This document shows positions 1 through 17,505 of a stretch of 59,385 nucleotides of DNA, piece after piece. Source of the DNA: a virus (Duplodnaviria > Caudoviricetes); the IMG/VR virus record IMGVR_UViG_3300029309_000033, positions 1-59,385 of that record. One strand, 5' to 3'. Within the stretch, counting starts at the first letter, position 1; every line of letters begins with the position of its first letter. The notes below the pieces were generated by a model. The model did not search any database and was not told the origin of the DNA. It saw nothing but the letters and a program-made list of their open reading frames with translations. A program made the position numbers and the translations under genes.

Positions 1-410
1 GAAGTTGATTGTCCAGAAAGAGTGCTTCCACTCGTTCCAACAAAATCAAAACCAGAATTATTCATCGCTGATGTTCCTGTACCATCATGTTGTGCTTCAA
101 ACACGATAAAAGGATCCACAAACACCGTAGCCACTATATCTGAAGCGTTTGTGCTTGCAGGATAGAAGGCTTTGAATGTAGGTTTACTAGTTGATGGATC
201 TGTGAAGAAACAACCTCCGAACACACCCGCTTGTTGAGTGTCTCCAGCTGCCGCTTGTTCAATACCACCACCAGCTACCGCTTCAACCACTTGACCATTA
301 AAAATGGAAGTTCCATGGTTAGCCGCGATTTTATACTCTTCAGCTCTGATTCTTCCACCTGAAAGATGTCTTGTAGGTTTGAAACCAAAAGCCGCGTCTT
401 TATTAGCCAT
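1..410 (-). CDS. Partial second allele of the capsid-associated gene at 58664-59230 (runs off the left edge)
   Basis: ATG at 410; reads MANKDAAFGFKPTRHLSGGRIRAEEYKIAANHG, nearly identical to 58664-59230. Confidence 0.9.
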   Translation of the reverse strand, partial: MANKDAAFGFKPTRHLSGGRIRAEEYKIAANHGTSIFNGQVVEAVAGGGIEQAAAGDTQQAGVFGGCFFTDPSTSKPTFKAFYPASTNASDIVATVFVDPFIVFEAQHDGTGTSAMNNSGFDFVGTSGSTLSGQST

Positions 411-4940: not shown

Positions 4941-5332
4941 TATTTTTTTCCTCCTTTAAATATTTGCGTTCCCTTTATACCATAAATACTCGCCACGACA
5001 AGGATCCATAAATTTGTGAACCATGACGGCAGCTGTTGGAACTGTTCAAAAAACTCTTTTATCTTTGCAGACGCTGACGGATCGTCCGAGAAGACCCCGT
5101 ACGCAATCACCAGTATCGGGAGCGTTAACACGACCAACACGAACTCGTCTTTCCAGTCCGATTGTCTAGCTTCTAGTAATTTTCCAGAATATTCTAACTC
5201 ACCGTTTGCCATTTTCTCAGCGTGTTTGGCTTGTGCGTTAGCCATCATCATTTGTGTTTCTTTTTTCTTCTTATAAATGTGCGAACCAGCATTTACTGCA
5301 AGTTTTAGTGCACCTAAAATAGGAAATGCCAT
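4940..5332 (-). CDS. Membrane protein, possible holin
   Basis: SDWKDEF followed by two hydrophobic helices; resembles 3TM GTA-type holins. Confidence 0.55.
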   Translation of the reverse strand: MAFPILGALKLAVNAGSHIYKKKKETQMMMANAQAKHAEKMANGELEYSGKLLEARQSDWKDEFVLVVLTLPILVIAYGVFSDDPSASAKIKEFFEQFQQLPSWFTNLWILVVASIYGIKGTQIFKGGKK

Positions 5333-10210: not shown

Positions 10211-10438
10211 ATGAGTACAGATAAAAGAATAGTTTATATTAACGGCTTAGAGATAGGTTTTAAAGGTGGCAACACTTTATTAGAACTAATCGATAAAGAA
10301 AAAATCAATATAAAAAAATACGGTAAATCGCTCGAATACCATAAAATCCATTTAGAATATTTAACCAAATCAATTAATAAATATCTGTCACAATGGGACA
10401 ATGTAAAATTAGGAGATGAGGTTCACTATAAAAAATAA
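10211..10438 (+). CDS. Early hypothetical protein
   Basis: 75 aa, preceded by AGAAAGGATAAAA. Confidence 0.7.
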   Translation: MSTDKRIVYINGLEIGFKGGNTLLELIDKEKINIKKYGKSLEYHKIHLEYLTKSINKYLSQWDNVKLGDEVHYKK

Positions 10439-10505
10439 ATCGAAACGGGGGGGCAGTAATGCCCCCTGTCTACATGGGTGGCGGCTGTGTACTGATGAGA
10501 TGCCA
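10439..10505 (+). ncRNA. Type II hammerhead ribozyme
   Basis: ATC-GAAAC, stem III with GTAA loop, GTC cleavage triplet (10468-10470), stem I TACATGG/CTGTGTA, CTGATGA (10492-10498), GAT closing stem II, loop I TGGC complementary to 3' GCCA. Confidence 0.9.
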
Positions 10506-10521
10506 AAACAAAAGGATACAG

Positions 10522-10953
10522 ATGAACAAAGAACAAAAAGAAATAATTAAAAGAATAAATAAGGCTTATTCTAAATTATACATTTTAAGTAATATTACAT
10601 GGACACCCCATAGAGACGAATTATTTAAAATGAATAGAAAAGACGAAAAGCAACATAGATTTGGCGATTGGGCTGAATATCATCAAGGCGCAGCTTCAAT
10701 TAATGATTGTGCAAAACTTTTTACAGTAAAACATATTGCGGAAAGTTTATTAAATCTAAATAAATGGGGCGTAAAAGATTTATTAAATATTAAGAAATCT
10801 TGTGTTTATTCTCAATCATTGGTTAATAATTATGGCGATAGAATTAGAGAAGCATGGATTGATGAAGATATAAAATATCTTGCAGATTTAGACTATATTG
10901 CCCTAGTTAACTGGGATTTATATCAAGAGCAAAAAAATAGAAAAATTGCTTAA
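10522..10953 (+). CDS. Early hypothetical protein
   Basis: Start moved to MNKEQKE after AAAAGGA; the track's extension runs through the ribozyme. Confidence 0.75.
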   Translation: MNKEQKEIIKRINKAYSKLYILSNITWTPHRDELFKMNRKDEKQHRFGDWAEYHQGAASINDCAKLFTVKHIAESLLNLNKWGVKDLLNIKKSCVYSQSLVNNYGDRIREAWIDEDIKYLADLDYIALVNWDLYQEQKNRKIA

Positions 10954-13225: not shown

Positions 13226-13441
13226 ATGAAACATTTAAAAATAGATACTGAAGAAGTAAGATTTTTAATTAATTCTTATGAAGATTGGTATAATACTTTT
13301 GATAAAGACGGCTATAAATATGTTATCGAACAATTAAATTTTGATAACAAATATTATGACGATATACTTTCATCACTTCATAATTTTGTTAAAGGTGGTG
13401 AATTTTACCCTATAAAAATAAAACAAGAAAGGAAACAATGA
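13226..13441 (+). CDS. Early hypothetical protein
   Basis: Start at the shared motif, MKHLKID. Confidence 0.65.
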   Translation: MKHLKIDTEEVRFLINSYEDWYNTFDKDGYKYVIEQLNFDNKYYDDILSSLHNFVKGGEFYPIKIKQERKQ

Positions 13442-13626
13442 AACATTACAGCGTTGGAGTAGCAGACATTACTTTTTACTTAATGGACGAAGACGGAAAT
13501 GTTAAAGAAGATAAACAAGGTAATGAAATAACTTATAGAATAAAAGATGGTATAAGATTTAAATCCATTGAATATTTAACAGAAGACTTAGATGTTGATA
13601 TGCTAGAACAAGAAAGGAAAAAATAA
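13438..13626 (+). CDS. Early hypothetical protein
   Basis: 62 aa; AGAAAGGA SD. Confidence 0.65.
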   Translation: MKHYSVGVADITFYLMDEDGNVKEDKQGNEITYRIKDGIRFKSIEYLTEDLDVDMLEQERKK

Positions 13627-13627
13627 T

Positions 13628-13783
13628 ATGTTAAAAGCAATATATTTCGCATTACATTTTGCAATGTTAATGCTAGGTACGGTTATAGCTATTCACATTG
13701 ATTTGTGGTTAGGTTTAGCGATAGCAATTACATTTGGTGTAAAGTTTTTCTTTATGCTGCCAAATAATAAAGAAGGTTTTTAA
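13628..13783 (+). CDS. 51-aa membrane protein (not in ORF track)
   Basis: MLKAIYFALHFAMLMLGTVIAIHIDLWLGLAIAITFGVKFFFMLP; two hydrophobic segments. Confidence 0.65.
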   Translation: MLKAIYFALHFAMLMLGTVIAIHIDLWLGLAIAITFGVKFFFMLPNNKEGF

Positions 13784-13800
13784 ATAGAAAGGATAAAAGA

Positions 13801-14046
13801 ATGAAAGAAGATAAATTATGGGAATGGGACAGTATGATAAATTATTTATACGGTAAAGATGTGGTTGATGCCTACCCAGACGGGTGGAGTTGTATTAGCT
13901 GTGGTGCTGAATTTACTGAAAAAACAATAGATGTTGAGTGTCTTTATGTTATTCACAACAGAGAAGGAACAGAATGTTTAAAATGTGTAAATCAACAAGC
14001 TAAAGGTAGTCATGAACTAACAAAGGTGCGACAATATGGTGCTTGA
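13801..14046 (+). CDS. Zn-ribbon-like early protein
   Basis: CISC...CLKC; shared SD motif. Confidence 0.65.
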   Translation: MKEDKLWEWDSMINYLYGKDVVDAYPDGWSCISCGAEFTEKTIDVECLYVIHNREGTECLKCVNQQAKGSHELTKVRQYGA

Positions 14047-14074
14047 TATTATAGGATTTTATGTATATTTATAG

Positions 14075-14430
14075 GACAACCAACAAATAAACATTGCAAG
14101 TTTATTTGGCTTTGTGGCAGAACAACGCTTAAGCGGGTGTAATGCACAGGATCGGAGGGTTACGGGCTAGTGCCTGAAGACACCGAAACTGGTTGTGAGT
14201 ACCGACCATCTATCAAAAAGATACTTGGACGCTTCGGGAAAGCTTGTGGGTGATCTACCAAGATAGTCCCACCAAGCAGGTTAAATAGGTGAGTACGCGA
14301 GTGCTGTATCGATATGGGTGAACCAAAAAAGTGACATTTATATGACCAATAAAGGTTCAACAAAACTCATAGGAGGTGCTATATGCGTCCTTACGCCAGA
14401 TACCCCACCCGAAAGGGTGGGGATACAAAA
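14075..14430 (+). ncRNA. Candidate structured non-coding RNA, family not recognised (5' end approximate)
   Basis: GC-richer island with no credible ORF, many nested helices, promoter-like TTGATA...TATATT upstream and a strong 3' hairpin. Confidence 0.6.
14403..14422. terminator. Strong hairpin between convergent units
   Basis: CCCCACCC-GAAA-GGGTGGGG. Confidence 0.7.
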
Positions 14431-14432
14431 AT

Positions 14433-14678
14433 CTAAAGTTTCTTCTTAACAGATCCCATTTTCCAAGATTGCTGCGTTGATAGTTCTATAACAAGTCTAT
14501 GACTTTCTCTTGCGCCAATAATATTATTTTCAAATAAACTTATTGAGAGAATATCAAATTGACCGTCTGGTGAATGAAACTCGCCTTGTGGTAACTTAAC
14601 AACTACTCTCGCATCTTGACATGTGGGGGACTTTAAAAACCTGTCTAATTGTCTAGCTAATTCTTTCGCATTAATCAT
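14433..14678 (-). CDS. Hypothetical protein
   Basis: 81 aa, divergent from terS. Confidence 0.7.
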   Translation of the reverse strand: MINAKELARQLDRFLKSPTCQDARVVVKLPQGEFHSPDGQFDILSISLFENNIIGARESHRLVIELSTQQSWKMGSVKKKL

Positions 14679-14682
14679 GTAT

Positions 14683-14715
14683 TTGACATTTAAAGTTATT
14701 TGCCGTAAATGTCAA
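14683..14715. promoter_or_regulatory. Bidirectional promoter formed by an inverted repeat
   Basis: TTGACATTTA-13-TAAATGTCAA gives TTGACA-17-TAAATG on both strands. Confidence 0.7.
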
Positions 14716-14717
14716 GA

Positions 14718-15263
14718 ATGGGTGTACCGAAAAGATTAACAGAAATGCAGAGAAAATTTGCAAACCTTTTAGTATCAAATGAAGGCCGCAAATATGGCTA
14801 TGAGTGCGCCATAGAAGCAGGCTACGAGAAGGATAGATCAAGGCAGACAGCTTATGAACTACAAAACCCTAAATTATATCCATTAGTTGTAAAATATATT
14901 GGTGAGATTAGAGAAGAATACCAGAAGAAATACGAAGTAACTTATGAAAAACATATAACAGAACTAGCAAAAATCAGGGAACAAGCATTAAAGAAGGGTG
15001 CATTCTCGGCAGCTAGTAACGCAGAAGTTGCAAGGGGTAAAGCTGCGGGTCTATATGTCGAACAGAAAATAATTCGAACTGGTAAATTAGACGACATGTC
15101 AAAAGCAGAAATGGAAGAAGAACTAAAAAAGATTATAGACGAATATTCACCTATCTTAGAAAATGTTACTGTTGATGATGTAAAGAAAAATATCGAGAAG
15201 AAAAGATTACCGCGACTTAAGAAAGTTTCGTCAACTTCTTCACCCAAGAACGAGGTATCATAG
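14718..15263 (+). CDS. terS: Terminase small subunit (alternative start 14709)
   Basis: LTEMQRKFA...CAIEAGY...QTAYEL...VVKYIGEIRE resembles the Terminase_2 N-terminal HTH; ATG 14718 sits at the predicted TSS. Confidence 0.75.
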   Translation: MGVPKRLTEMQRKFANLLVSNEGRKYGYECAIEAGYEKDRSRQTAYELQNPKLYPLVVKYIGEIREEYQKKYEVTYEKHITELAKIREQALKKGAFSAASNAEVARGKAAGLYVEQKIIRTGKLDDMSKAEMEEELKKIIDEYSPILENVTVDDVKKNIEKKRLPRLKKVSSTSSPKNEVS

Positions 15264-15510
15264 TTCTATCACCGAAGGTAATAGTGCCGTCATCATCTTT
15301 ATCATAGCTTGCAAAAATTTTAATTGATTTTTTATCTTTTGAATACAACCAACCTTCGTTAACTGGTGTCGCCAGTTTCATCTTATCAAATTCTTTGTCT
15401 GTAGCCCAACCACTATCGGACACGCAATCAATCCATTCGACACGATATTTTGGATAAGGTATGTCATTTGACCTGGTGCTAGTCATATTTAGTTTTCTTT
15501 TTTTAGGCAT
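15217..15510 (-). CDS. Hypothetical protein
   Basis: VEWIDCVSDSGW...IPRSWV; convergent overlap with terS. Confidence 0.7.
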   Translation of the reverse strand: MPKKRKLNMTSTRSNDIPYPKYRVEWIDCVSDSGWATDKEFDKMKLATPVNEGWLYSKDKKSIKIFASYDKDDDGTITFGDRTMIPRSWVKKLTKLS

Positions 15511-15784
15511 GAGGGGGTTATATCAGACCCCTATAGGTTTTCCATGAGAAATTATGTCAATATGGAGTTCAAAACACTCGCGCGGCCCCTATATACTTGA
15601 TTACATATGACAATATACATGTAATCCTATGCTTTAAAACCATTGGTATTCCTTACTGATCACCAAAGAGCCAGATCACCTCTATTTTTAAACACGCTTT
15701 TGCAAATTTTAATATATCCAGAAACCTATAGGTTGGTGATGAACCGCATAAAACCTAGCTTTTCTATTTTTGCCCCCTGACACC

Positions 15785-16006
15785 TGATATTTAAACCCAG
15801 TATCAAGGGACATGATCAGTCCCCGTGCGTTTACGGGAGCTACTCCCAACGCAGCTAAACTAATCTCAGATCCATTGTCCCGCTACATGTACAGTCGCGA
15901 ACCCGTTACAATGGATCAGAGATCAGCTCTAGGGCAAACCAAGCAGGATAATGCTAAAATCCCTAGAGATGATCCTCAAATGAGGGGGTTATCCCCCCTT
16001 ATTTGA
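15785..16006. other. Array of consecutive hairpins (structured RNA or DNA element)
   Basis: GGGAC/GTCCC, TGCGTT..GGGAG/CTCCC.AACGCA, GATCCATTGT/ACAATGGATC, CTCTAGGG/CCCTAGAG, TCAAATGAGGGGG/CCCCCTTATTTGA. Confidence 0.6.
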
Positions 16007-16980: not shown

Positions 16981-17086
16981 CGTCTCTCTTTTCTAAATGA
17001 TTTACTATAAAAAGTATAATAACACTCGCCAGTAGTATTAAAAACATACCAAGCAAAAACATACCTAAACCATGAAAAAATGTCAT
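16967..17086 (-). CDS. 39-aa single-pass membrane protein (not in ORF track)
   Basis: MTFFHGLGMFLLGMFLILLASVIILFIVNHLEKRDDEME; ATGA overlap. Confidence 0.55.
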   Translation of the reverse strand: MTFFHGLGMFLLGMFLILLASVIILFIVNHLEKRDDEME

Positions 17087-17505
17087 TCTAAACTCATAGC
17101 TTGTTTATATTCTTCTAAACTTACAACCTTGTCATTCATTATCTCTAGCTTTGAAGAATAATGATCTATTATTTTTTGTATTTTATGTAATTTTACATGC
17201 GCATAAGGCCAAAGTAATCTTGCAACATAATAAGCCTCTCTATGTTGACAACGCCAACGCCATTGTTTTTTCCAACCAAGCGTATATTTAGTTTTATATC
17301 TCTTTGGATTTACTGTTCCAACTTTTAAAATTTCATGGATCCATTTTAAAATAGACTGGTCCGTCATGGATATCTCTAATCTTATGCTCCATGTCGGATA
17401 CGCTCTTTTATTATGTGGTCTCTTTCGATCATATTGTTTGTAAGATACACAACCCTCGCCATCAAATAGGCCTGCGATATAAGCCAAGTTAGTATCACTC
17501 GGCAT
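17083..17505 (-). CDS. Single-motif LAGLIDADG endonuclease-like protein
   Basis: LAYIAGLFDGEGCV. Confidence 0.8.
   Translation of the reverse strand: MPSDTNLAYIAGLFDGEGCVSYKQYDRKRPHNKRAYPTWSIRLEISMTDQSILKWIHEILKVGTVNPKRYKTKYTLGWKKQWRWRCQHREAYYVARLLWPYAHVKLHKIQKIIDHYSSKLEIMNDKVVSLEEYKQAMSLE

What the first reader, a model, noticed from the sequence alone, without database searches (positions are those of the whole stretch)
14075..14430. Candidate novel ~330-nt structured phage RNA with its own promoter and terminal hairpin
Seen: an abrupt GC-richer island after a promoter-like sequence. Helices include TTTGGC (5') / GCCAGA (3') closing the domain, CGC-TTAA-GCG, CGGGC-TAGT-GCCTG, TATC-AAAAA-GATA, GCTTG.TGGG..ATCT/AGAT..CCCA.CAAGC, TGAGT/ACTCA enclosing GTAC-GCGA-GTGC and TGAACC/GGTTCA, AGGA..TCCT, and a final GAAA-capped hairpin. 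GNRA loops and G-U pairs favour the + strand. I do not recognise the family. Inference: a multi-domain functional RNA (decoy, scaffold or ribozyme) expressed with the early region. This is my best candidate for an undescribed system.
Basis: partly seen in the sequence, partly recalled or inferred. Interest (0 to 1): 0.8.

Follow-up and report, generated by a model that had tools for sequence, protein, structure and literature searches.

The report
Folded RNA gene of ocean phages
This marine phage carries a separate small gene for an intricately folded RNA, a distant cousin of the 'manA' RNAs that can build RNA-only cages in the test tube, and the same RNA is common in viruses of the ocean's most abundant bacteria.

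Summary
Window 14085-14422 (+) is a real, conserved, structured non-coding RNA.

- **Conserved part:** a 5' hairpin (14085-14107) plus a five-way-junction core (14108-14280). The core includes a long-range pairing that covaries C-G/A-U/U-A.
- **Distribution:** about 115 marine viral loci and the isolate Pelagibacter phage HTVC008M. Two pattern scans found none in 185,579 bacterial and archaeal species genomes.
- **Covariation:** 99% of cells paired and 25 of 43 pairs with double changes on 49 sequences not used to build the model.
- **3' extension:** the 14281-14422 stretch with its terminal hairpin occurs in only 5 loci.
- **Expression:** contigs from three marine RNA-library studies cover 14086-14405.

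The family is only partly undescribed. Rfam's manA model (RF01745) matches HTVC008M and 12 of 14 relatives over their full length, at 23-33 bits, below its cut-off of 55.2. The window copy gives no match at all. This is therefore an unrecognised, divergent pelagiphage branch of the manA family.

The gene has a sigma-70-type promoter. It lies in either orientation between the same neighbours, and in the window it ends at a hairpin facing a convergent gene. That argues against the published riboswitch idea and for a stand-alone RNA. A 2026 preprint shows that manA RNAs self-assemble into closed cages, so self-assembly is the most likely mode of action here. The biological role is unknown.

The parts
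14043..14069 (+). Promoter-like sequence: TTGATA (14043-14048), a 15-nt spacer, TATATT (14064-14069). It is imperfect in this lineage.
   Evidence: Read. The simple scan does not call it. 54 of 84 distinct homologous upstream regions carry TTGAC[AT]-16..18-TAnnnT, ending 36-41 nt before P1. Canonical manA genes of P-SSM2 and P-SSM4 have TTGACA-17-TATAAT in the same place.
14085..14107 (+). P0, the 5' hairpin: AAAUAAAC / loop AUUGCAA / GUUUAUUU. The centre of the loop is self-complementary (UUGCAA).
   Evidence: The stem sequence differs freely between homologs while pairing is kept. By eye in the 57 distinct upstream regions, the loop centre is UGCA or UCGA in all and the hexamer is a perfect palindrome in 55. 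A contig of RNA run X5 begins at 14086, directly behind adapter letters.
14108..14280 (+). Conserved core, a five-way junction. P1 is 14111-14114 with 14273-14276. P2/P2b is 14117-14145. P3/P3a is 14147-14191. P4/P5 is 14195-14243. P6 is 14246-14272.
   Evidence: Model R1 gives one hit in the window, 196 bits. Covariation is shown.
14132..14135 (+). 5' half of the long-range pairing: AGCG, in the P2b loop UUAAGCGG.
   Evidence: It pairs with 14230-14233. The middle pair is C-G in 21, A-U in 19 and U-A in 4 of 44 sequences with letters. Whether it forms within one molecule or between copies cannot be told from covariation.
14230..14233 (+). 3' half of the long-range pairing: CGCU, in the bulge ACGCU between P5 and P4.
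14156..14182 (+). Invariant internal loop GAGGGUUA ... GAAGACAC, flanking hairpin P3a (14163-14176).
   Evidence: The loop is invariant in all rows of A3 and A4. Column 56 (14163) covaries in Watson-Crick fashion with loop column 63 (14170) in 63 of 63 sequences. This is unexplained.
14199..14240 (+). AGUA (14199-14202) opposite GAA (14238-14240) inside P4. It looks like a loop-E / sarcin-ricin type motif.
   Evidence: The sequence is read. The motif consensus is recalled, not tested.
14281..14402 (+). Lineage-specific 3' extension. It holds a strong ribosome-binding-like AGGAGG and an AUG (14383) that would start a 17-codon frame.
   Evidence: It is present in 5 loci only (window, L003, L011, L010, L014), in two forms. 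L010 and L014 differ by a compensated hairpin, ACCCG/CGGGU against GCUCG/CGAGU. RNA-library contigs run through it to 14405.
14403..14422 (+). End hairpin CCCCACCC-GAAA-GGGUGGGG, the likely terminator. Here it is followed by AUACAAAAAUC, not a U-run.
   Evidence: The same hairpin is followed by UUUUUUUAUU in L010 and L014. The convergent ORF 14433-14678 (-) starts 11 nt beyond it.

Best explanation
Window 14085-14422 (+) is an autonomously transcribed gene for a compactly folded non-coding RNA.

**Anatomy**
- The conserved part is a 5' hairpin plus a five-way junction.
- It carries a covariation-proven long-range pairing and an invariant internal loop.

**Family**
- It belongs to a clade carried by SAR11 phages of at least two kinds: T4-like HTVC008M relatives and this 59-kb phage with DNA polymerase A and an SU10-type portal.
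- The clade is a divergent, so far unrecognised branch of the manA RNA family.

**Proposed mechanism (inferred)**
- Host RNA polymerase makes the RNA from a sigma-70-type promoter.
- The RNA acts as a free molecule, not as the leader of a neighbouring gene.
- Like canonical manA RNAs in vitro, it most likely joins with copies of itself through loop-loop contacts into closed homo-oligomers.
- The self-complementary loop of the 5' hairpin is the candidate two-fold contact.
- What the assembly does in the infected cell (sequestering, scaffolding or protecting something) is not known.

**Shown versus inferred**
- Shown: the structure, its conservation, its phage-only distribution, its presence in RNA libraries and its variable gene orientation.
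- Inferred: homology to manA, action in trans, and self-assembly.
For: **Structure**
- RNAalifold predicts 41 pairs, 12 of them compensated.
- On A3, 93.7% of cells are paired and 22 of 48 pairs have double changes. No shuffle of 500 reaches this, and slid controls give 28-45%.
- On 49 distinct sequences not used to build R1, 99.0% of cells are paired and 25 of 43 pairs have double changes.

**Spread**
- IMG/VR pattern scans gave 15, 35 and 113 stretches.
- R1 hit 65 of 65 sources searched, once each.
- HTVC008M carries it between gp007 and the SSB gene.
- Two scans of genome contigs gave 0 hits.

**Link to manA**
- RF01745 aligns over its full length (1-192) to HTVC008M at 25.9 bits, E 5e-5.
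- It also aligns to 12 of 14 relatives at 23-33 bits.
- R1 aligns over its full length to the annotated manA of cyanophage S-CREM1 at 16.7 bits, E 0.0024.
- Canonical manA genes of P-SSM2 and P-SSM4 have the same layout: TTGACA-17-TATAAT, then a 5' hairpin, then P1.

**Autonomy**
- The RNA lies between the same two genes in opposite orientations: 7-9 loci one way, 2 loci the other.
- In the window it ends at a hairpin facing a convergent ORF.
- S-CREM1 manA sits 1 and 0 nt from flanking tRNA genes.

**Expression**
- RNA-library contigs of three studies cover 14086-14405.

**Self-assembly**
- The preprint 10.64898/2026.07.01.735769 reports cryo-EM of manA RNAs as a 60-mer cage, decamers and an octamer, held by intermolecular kissing loops.
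- The P0 loop centre is self-complementary in all 57 distinct versions.
- Columns 56 and 63 covary although they cannot pair within one hairpin.
Against: **Weak link to manA**
- The window copy gets no manA match at E<=10 and none in a whole-record search.
- No member of the clade reaches the gathering score of 55.2.
- R1 scores canonical P-SSM4 and P-SSM2 manA at only 6.2 and 3.9 bits, E 0.87 and 3.5, which is not significant.
- The link to manA therefore rests on one-directional sub-threshold matches plus shared layout.

**Self-assembly untested here**
- No member of this clade has been tested for self-assembly.
- The canonical P0 loop (GACG) is not self-complementary, so the contacts would have to differ.
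- The cages in the preprint were made in vitro at about 3 mg/mL RNA and 10 mM Mg. No role in cells is shown there.

**Cis-regulation not excluded**
- In at least 72 of 115 loci (T4-like phages) the RNA lies upstream of, and co-oriented with, a small ORF and gene 32. A cis role is not excluded there.

**Limits of the expression data**
- Contigs cannot show strand, ends or level of an RNA.
Confidence: 0.6

Rival explanations
1. It is a riboswitch or other cis-regulatory leader, as first proposed for manA. The core would bind a small ligand in its invariant internal loop and control the gene that follows, or an antisense transcript of a convergent gene.
For: - Weinberg 2010 rated manA a riboswitch candidate lying in 5' UTRs (passages).
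- In at least 54 of 115 loci gene 32 lies downstream in the same direction, often after a small ORF whose ribosome-binding site is 10-25 nt from P1.
- The window copy has an 'expression-platform-like' 3' extension with a sequestered AGGAGG and a terminator hairpin.
- The junction and internal loops are invariant, as in ligand pockets.
Against: - The RNA lies in opposite orientations between the same neighbours.
- The downstream genes are unrelated across lineages.
- In the window nothing co-oriented follows the hairpin.
- No copy was found in any bacterial genome, whereas riboswitch classes are normally cellular.
- S-CREM1 manA lies inside a tRNA array.
- manA RNAs form defined cages without ligand.
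Confidence: 0.17
2. It is a monomeric protein-binding RNA, a decoy or scaffold. It would capture a host factor of SAR11 (for example RNA polymerase, an RNase, a ribosomal or defence protein) or a phage protein shared by both phage types.
For: - It has its own early-type promoter, is present in RNA libraries, and is transferred as a unit between unrelated pelagiphages.
- It has a loop-E-like AGUA/GAA element, a common protein and RNA docking site (recalled).
- A relative's contig lacks the cassette 13784-14438, so the gene is accessory (run X3).
Against: - No protein gene co-occurs with it across both phage types.
- It shows no likeness to any host RNA family in Rfam.
- Its nearest relatives are shown to interact with themselves.
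Confidence: 0.15
3. It is a ribozyme: a self-processing or trans-acting catalyst.
For: - The fold is compact, with a long-range pairing and invariant unpaired nucleotides.
- Many copies have no terminator at their 3' end.
- The phage carries a hammerhead elsewhere.
Against: - It matches no ribozyme family.
- No conserved sequence lies at either end where cleavage would fall.
- The manA structures were reported as intact assemblies.
Confidence: 0.05

Closest known systems
manA RNA motif (Rfam RF01745; Weinberg et al. 2010, PMC2864571)
   Same: - Both are marine phage RNAs of about 190 nt.
- Both follow TTGACA-17-TATAAT with a 5' hairpin, a closing helix P1 and a multi-helix core.
- Shared strings: UG(A/G)C(U/A)GAA(U/C)AA, UAA(G/U)G, and the last hairpin UUGUG(G/A)GUA...AAUC(C/U)CAC.
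- The Rfam model aligns over its full length to HTVC008M and to 12 of 14 relatives.
   Different: - Scores of 23-33 bits stay below the cut-off of 55.2, and the window copy gets none.
- The P3 domain has one hairpin here, against two or three in manA.
- P4/P5, with the AGUA/GAA element and the ACNCU bulge, is specific to this clade.
- The P0 loop is UUGCAA/UUCGAA here, against GACG in manA.
- The hosts are SAR11 phages, not cyanophages.
- The gene is found in both orientations and, in the window, without a downstream gene.
GOLLD and ROOL RNAs (large phage- and prophage-associated RNAs that form RNA-only multimeric cages; recalled from the 2025 cryo-EM literature, not read here)
   Same: - They are phage-borne stand-alone structured RNAs of unknown function.
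- They are often next to tRNA genes, as manA is in S-CREM1.
- Self-assembly is their only demonstrated property.
   Different: - They are 3-4 times longer.
- They show no sequence or model match here.
- They occur in other bacterial phyla.
phi29 prohead RNA (pRNA)
   Same: - It is a phage-encoded RNA of about 170 nt with its own promoter.
- It oligomerises into a ring by intermolecular loop-loop pairing (recalled).
- In the window the RNA gene lies about 280 nt upstream of the small terminase gene.
   Different: - Rfam gives no match.
- In the T4-like carriers the gene lies in the replication cluster (gp59 to gene 32), not by the packaging genes.

Membership tests
manA RNA (RF01745) | Score at or above Rfam's gathering cut-off (55.2 bits) | tested here: not met
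   - The window gives no match at E<=10 in 13900-14600 and none in the whole record.
- Relatives score 23-33 bits.
- Positive controls: P-SSM4 scores 184.1 and P-SSM2 181.6 bits.
manA RNA (RF01745) | Colinear full-length alignment to the family model | tested here: inconclusive
   - Met by clade relatives: model positions 1-192 of 192 align in HTVC008M and in 12 of 14 loci, at exactly the RNA's place.
- Not met by the window type (L003) or by L089.
- In the reverse direction, R1 gives 16.7 bits on S-CREM1 manA, but only 6.2 and 3.9 bits on P-SSM4 and P-SSM2.
manA RNA (RF01745) | Architecture: 5' hairpin, closing helix, multi-helix core, long-range pairing ('pseudoknot?' in the 2010 paper) | tested here: met
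   - Covariation on A3 and A4 supports the helices.
- The long-range pair is C-G in 21, A-U in 19 and U-A in 4 sequences.
- Helix-by-helix mapping to the published drawing could not be done. Figures and supplements were not available.
manA RNA (RF01745) | Lies in the 5' UTR of a co-oriented gene (Rfam type: cis-regulatory) | tested here: not met
   - In the window the RNA ends at a hairpin and faces a convergent ORF.
- In 7-9 loci it is antisense to its neighbours.
- The feature is met in the T4-like carriers.
manA RNA (RF01745) | Self-assembly into closed homo-oligomers (preprint 10.64898/2026.07.01.735769) | not testable with these tools
   Only indirect hints exist: the self-complementary P0 loop and the covariation of columns 56 and 63.
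Any other Rfam 15 family (including lysine riboswitch, GOLLD, ROOL, pRNA, RNase P, tmRNA, 6S) | A match at the gathering score, or a credible sub-threshold match | tested here: not met
   - The only family at gathering score in the window is Hammerhead_II, at 10438-10508.
- The 7 weak matches in 13900-14600 are chance-like; the best is SmY at 18.5 bits on the - strand.
- ARAGORN found no tRNA or tmRNA.

The most novel reading that the evidence does not exclude
The pelagiphage manA-like RNA would be a building block of an RNA-only shell made in infected SAR11 cells.

- The self-complementary P0 loop (UUGCAA/UUCGAA) would make the two-fold contacts.
- The 'impossible' covariation of column 56 with column 63 would be a pair between neighbouring protomers, as perhaps would the UUAAGNGG/ACN'CU pairing.
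- Because these phages infect the most abundant bacteria of the sea and the RNA turns up in many marine RNA libraries, such RNA cages would be a widespread natural particle with a role in infection.
Probability: 0.3. Interest if true: 0.85.

Novelty: new variant of a known kind. Interest (0 to 1): 0.6.

Why it matters
manA has been an orphan RNA since 2010, filed as a probable riboswitch. A 2026 preprint shows that it builds RNA-only cages in vitro but gives no biology.

This clade adds three things:
- It extends the family from cyanophages to phages of SAR11, including a cultured pair, HTVC008M and Ca. P. ubique HTCC1062.
- Its gene layout argues that these RNAs are free-standing gene products rather than leaders. 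The gene has its own promoter, occurs in either orientation, has its own terminator, and in one cyanophage sits inside a tRNA array.
- It supplies covariation that may mark contacts between molecules.

It also shows that Rfam's model misses a large branch of the family. At least two phage genomes carry spurious 'hypothetical protein' calls over the RNA.

Tried and rejected
**Ideas and checks that led nowhere**
- Rfam at gathering score and at E<=10 on the window copy gave nothing usable.
- ARAGORN found no tRNA or tmRNA.
- I considered RNase P (a CAGAAC..GCUUA resemblance). I dropped it because the AAGC of GGGAAAGC covaries with P4, not with GCUU.
- I considered the lysine riboswitch (also a five-way junction), 6S, SRP, T-box, group I intron, put/EAR-type antiterminator and origin-primer RNA. 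None had a model match, and each was contradicted by topology or by the inverted gene orientation.
- I looked for a host copy or a mimic. Two pattern scans of genome contigs gave 0 hits. I did not run a covariance-model search of SAR11 genomes because I had no handle for them.
- BLAST with the S-CREM1 manA found only itself.
- RF01745 found nothing in S-H9-2, S-RIM2, S-CAM3, Syn9, S-PM2 or S-RSM4.

**Read cover**
- Runs X2, X4 and X5 gave no contig on the flanking genes 13400-14085 and 14406-15300.

**Possible small ORF**
- The 17-codon frame at 14383, behind AGGAGG, differs from L010 by a 3-nt length change.
- I did not test it further.

**Literature**
- No paper on this RNA in pelagiphages turned up in searches. 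I judged these by listings only.
- One search was badly posed and uninformative.
- Supplements were closed: Weinberg 2010 Additional files 1-3, the preprint's Figures S13-17, and S-CREM1 Table S7. They may hold manA gene contexts and helix numbering that bear on the mapping.
- The metagenome-contig scan was not used.

Full report
**1. The observation**

The stretch 14075-14430 is a G+C island: 0.49 at 14100-14299, against 0.19-0.34 upstream. It has no meaningful ORF. The + strand folds far better than shuffles (-114.1 kcal/mol, z -4.93, 0 of 100). The - strand does not (z -1.76, 5 of 100). Rfam 15 finds nothing there at gathering score or at E<=10. The only family in the whole window is a type II hammerhead at 10438-10508. 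ARAGORN finds no tRNA or tmRNA.

**2. Relatives**

GenBank phages hold one close relative, the seawater phage 023Pt_psg01. It is 85% identical over window 14086-14275, in an unannotated gap. Three pattern scans of IMG/VR gave 15, 35 and 113 stretches. I built covariance model R1 from 25 distinct cores. R1 hits the window once (14108-14280, 196 bits). It also hit 65 of 65 further sources, once each.

A version from a T4-like contig led to the isolate Pelagibacter phage HTVC008M. There the RNA lies between gp007 and the single-strand-binding protein gene, under a 56-codon 'hypothetical protein' call.

Of 115 loci with context, at least 72 are T4-like. They carry a 287-aa gene upstream and/or gene 32 downstream, with gp59 further up. 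The rest include phages like the window's, which have an SU10-type portal, DNA polymerase A, an AEP primase and an SNF2 helicase. Two pattern scans of 185,579 bacterial and archaeal species genomes found nothing.

**3. Structure**

The conserved unit is a 5' hairpin P0 (14085-14107) plus a core closed by P1 (14111-14114 with 14273-14276). Four arms leave the junction:
- P2/P2b.
- P3, carrying an invariant internal loop GAGGGUUA/GAAGACAC and hairpin P3a.
- P4, with an AGUA/GAA element, leading to the variable hairpin P5.
- P6.

RNAalifold gives 41 pairs, 12 of them compensated. My curated structure on A3 gives 93.7% of cells paired and 22 of 48 pairs with double changes. No shuffle of 500 reaches this, and slid controls give 28-45%. 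On 49 distinct sequences that were not used to build R1 it gives 99.0% paired and 25 of 43 pairs with double changes. That alignment was fitted to the model, which favours the structure.

A long-range pairing joins the P2b loop (AGCG, 14132-14135) to the bulge (CGCU, 14230-14233). Its middle pair is C-G in 21, A-U in 19 and U-A in 4 sequences. Column 21 instead pairs with column 30 (A-U 23, C-G 14, U-A 6, U-G 1).

Invariant G-U pairs fix the + strand.

One covariation remains unexplained. The first base of P3a (14163) is Watson-Crick to the third base of its own tetraloop (14170) in 63 of 63 sequences: U-A 31, C-G 22, G-C 10, in several backgrounds. Those two bases cannot pair within one 5-bp hairpin.

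**4. The 3' third**

The stretch 14281-14422 exists in only 5 loci, in two forms. It ends in the same CCCCACCC-GAAA-GGGUGGGG hairpin, which in L010 and L014 is followed by a U-run. It is a lineage-specific add-on with a terminator.

**5. A gene of its own**

54 of 84 distinct upstream regions have TTGAC[AT]-16..18-TAnnnT, ending 36-41 nt before P1. Most of the rest show TTGACA-17-TATATA or TATAAG by eye. The window's own version is weaker (TTGATA, 15 nt, TATATT) and a simple scan does not call it.

The RNA sits between a small Cys-rich protein gene and an RHH-like gene in one orientation in 7-9 loci, and in the other orientation in 2 loci. In 023Pt it is antisense to all neighbouring genes. 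In the window it faces a convergent ORF. A contig of run X3 joins 13783 to 14439, so a relative lacks ORF 13801-14046 together with the RNA gene.

**6. Expression**

14 RNA-library rows from marine studies hold 4-11% of the words of a 1.9-kb stretch around the RNA. I laid four runs. Contigs of three studies cover 14100-14335 (X2, identical), 14122-14405 (X4) and 14086-14321 (X5). One X5 contig starts at 14086 directly behind adapter letters, which is a weak hint of an end at the foot of P0. Contigs cannot give strand, level or true ends.

**7. What it is related to**

The HTVC008M copy matches Rfam manA (RF01745) over the whole model at 25.9 bits, E 5e-5. So do 12 of 14 relatives, at 23-33 bits. 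All are below the 55.2 cut-off. The two misses are the window type (L003) and L089.

Canonical manA RNAs score 184 and 182 bits in P-SSM4 and P-SSM2. They show the same layout: promoter, then 5' hairpin, then P1. They also share strings, including the last hairpin.

R1 finds the annotated manA of S-CREM1 over its full length at 16.7 bits, E 0.0024. On P-SSM4 and P-SSM2 it gives only 6.2 and 3.9 bits, which is not significant.

I read this as real but distant homology (about 0.85). The window RNA is two steps from the Rfam model and fails the family's formal threshold.

**8. What manA is**

Weinberg 2010 (passages read) describes manA this way:
- It is a riboswitch candidate from marine metagenomes, T4-like cyanophages and two gamma-proteobacteria.
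- It lies in 5' UTRs of diverse genes.
- Its pseudoknot is marked as doubtful.

In S-CREM1 the annotated manA lies 1 nt after tRNA-Leu and abuts tRNA-Asn inside a tRNA array. This suggests release as a free RNA, which is my inference.

A July 2026 preprint reports cryo-EM structures of manA RNAs as a 60-subunit icosahedral-like cage, decamers and an octamer. They are built from pentamers held by intermolecular kissing loops and a GNRA-receptor contact. No biological function is given. I read the abstract, section 8 and passages.

**9. Reading**

The gene layout argues against a leader or riboswitch and for a free RNA. By homology, self-assembly is the best-supported mode of action.

Two features of this clade fit it:
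- The P0 loop centre is self-complementary (UGCA or UCGA) in all 57 distinct versions. The GC to CG switch keeps that property.
- The column 56-63 covariation needs a partner outside its own hairpin.

Covariation cannot tell pairs within a molecule from pairs between identical molecules. The 'pseudoknot' may therefore also be a contact between copies. All of this is inference until tested.

**10. Verdict**

This is a real, conserved, transcribed structured RNA gene. It is a new, unrecognised pelagiphage branch of the known but functionally unsolved manA family. Its function in infection is unknown.

Noticed in passing
window 10438-10508 (+): A type II hammerhead ribozyme match (RF02276) at 38 bits, against a cut-off of 37. 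It overlaps the start of ORF 10459-10953, at the head of the + strand early gene block.
   Followed up: no
window 15511-15995: A second G+C-rich stretch (up to 0.49) with no ORF over 64 codons. It folds with z -4.4 on the - strand and z -4.8 on the + strand. Parts (15400-15771) are 70-85% conserved in L011, L031, L050, L055 and L084. It has no match in GenBank phages or Rfam, and may be another structured RNA.
   Followed up: partly
L039 2987-3157 (HTVC008M gp008, record 4993-5163); L132 2085-2258 (P-SSM4 PSSM4_169.1): Annotated 'hypothetical protein' genes lie on top of the manA-like RNA in HTVC008M and of the canonical manA RNA in P-SSM4. They are probably false gene calls.
   Followed up: partly
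L062 3983-4274; L025 915-1189: T4-like pelagiphage contigs encode a permuted (two-piece) alphaproteobacterial tmRNA: RF01849 at 73-81 bits and RF04321 at 88-99 bits. It lies about 0.5 kb (L062) to 2.6 kb (L025) upstream of the manA-like RNA.
   Followed up: no
window 13784-14438: A contig of run X3 joins 13783 to 14439, with TTATAA between. A close relative therefore lacks ORF 13801-14046 and the RNA gene together, so the pair behaves as an insertion/deletion cassette.
   Followed up: no
L001 3860-3955 (phage 023Pt_psg01): Just upstream of the RNA's promoter lies a further promoter-like TTGCAA-17-TAATAA. About 60 nt follow, ending in a strong hairpin plus T-run on the same strand. No ORF is present. 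It may be a small RNA unit.
   Followed up: no
L124 2633-3002 (cyanophage S-CREM1): The canonical manA RNA is wedged between tRNA-Leu and tRNA-Asn with gaps of 1 and 0 nt, inside an array that also holds wcaG and abiF RNAs. No promoter lies between the tRNA and the RNA.
   Followed up: partly
window 17083-17505 (-): A free-standing LAGLIDADG homing endonuclease gene (PF00961, E 1e-7). LAGLIDADG-type ORFs (by their GLFDGEG motif, recalled) or an annotated HNH gene lie within 1-1.5 kb of the RNA in several relatives.
   Followed up: no
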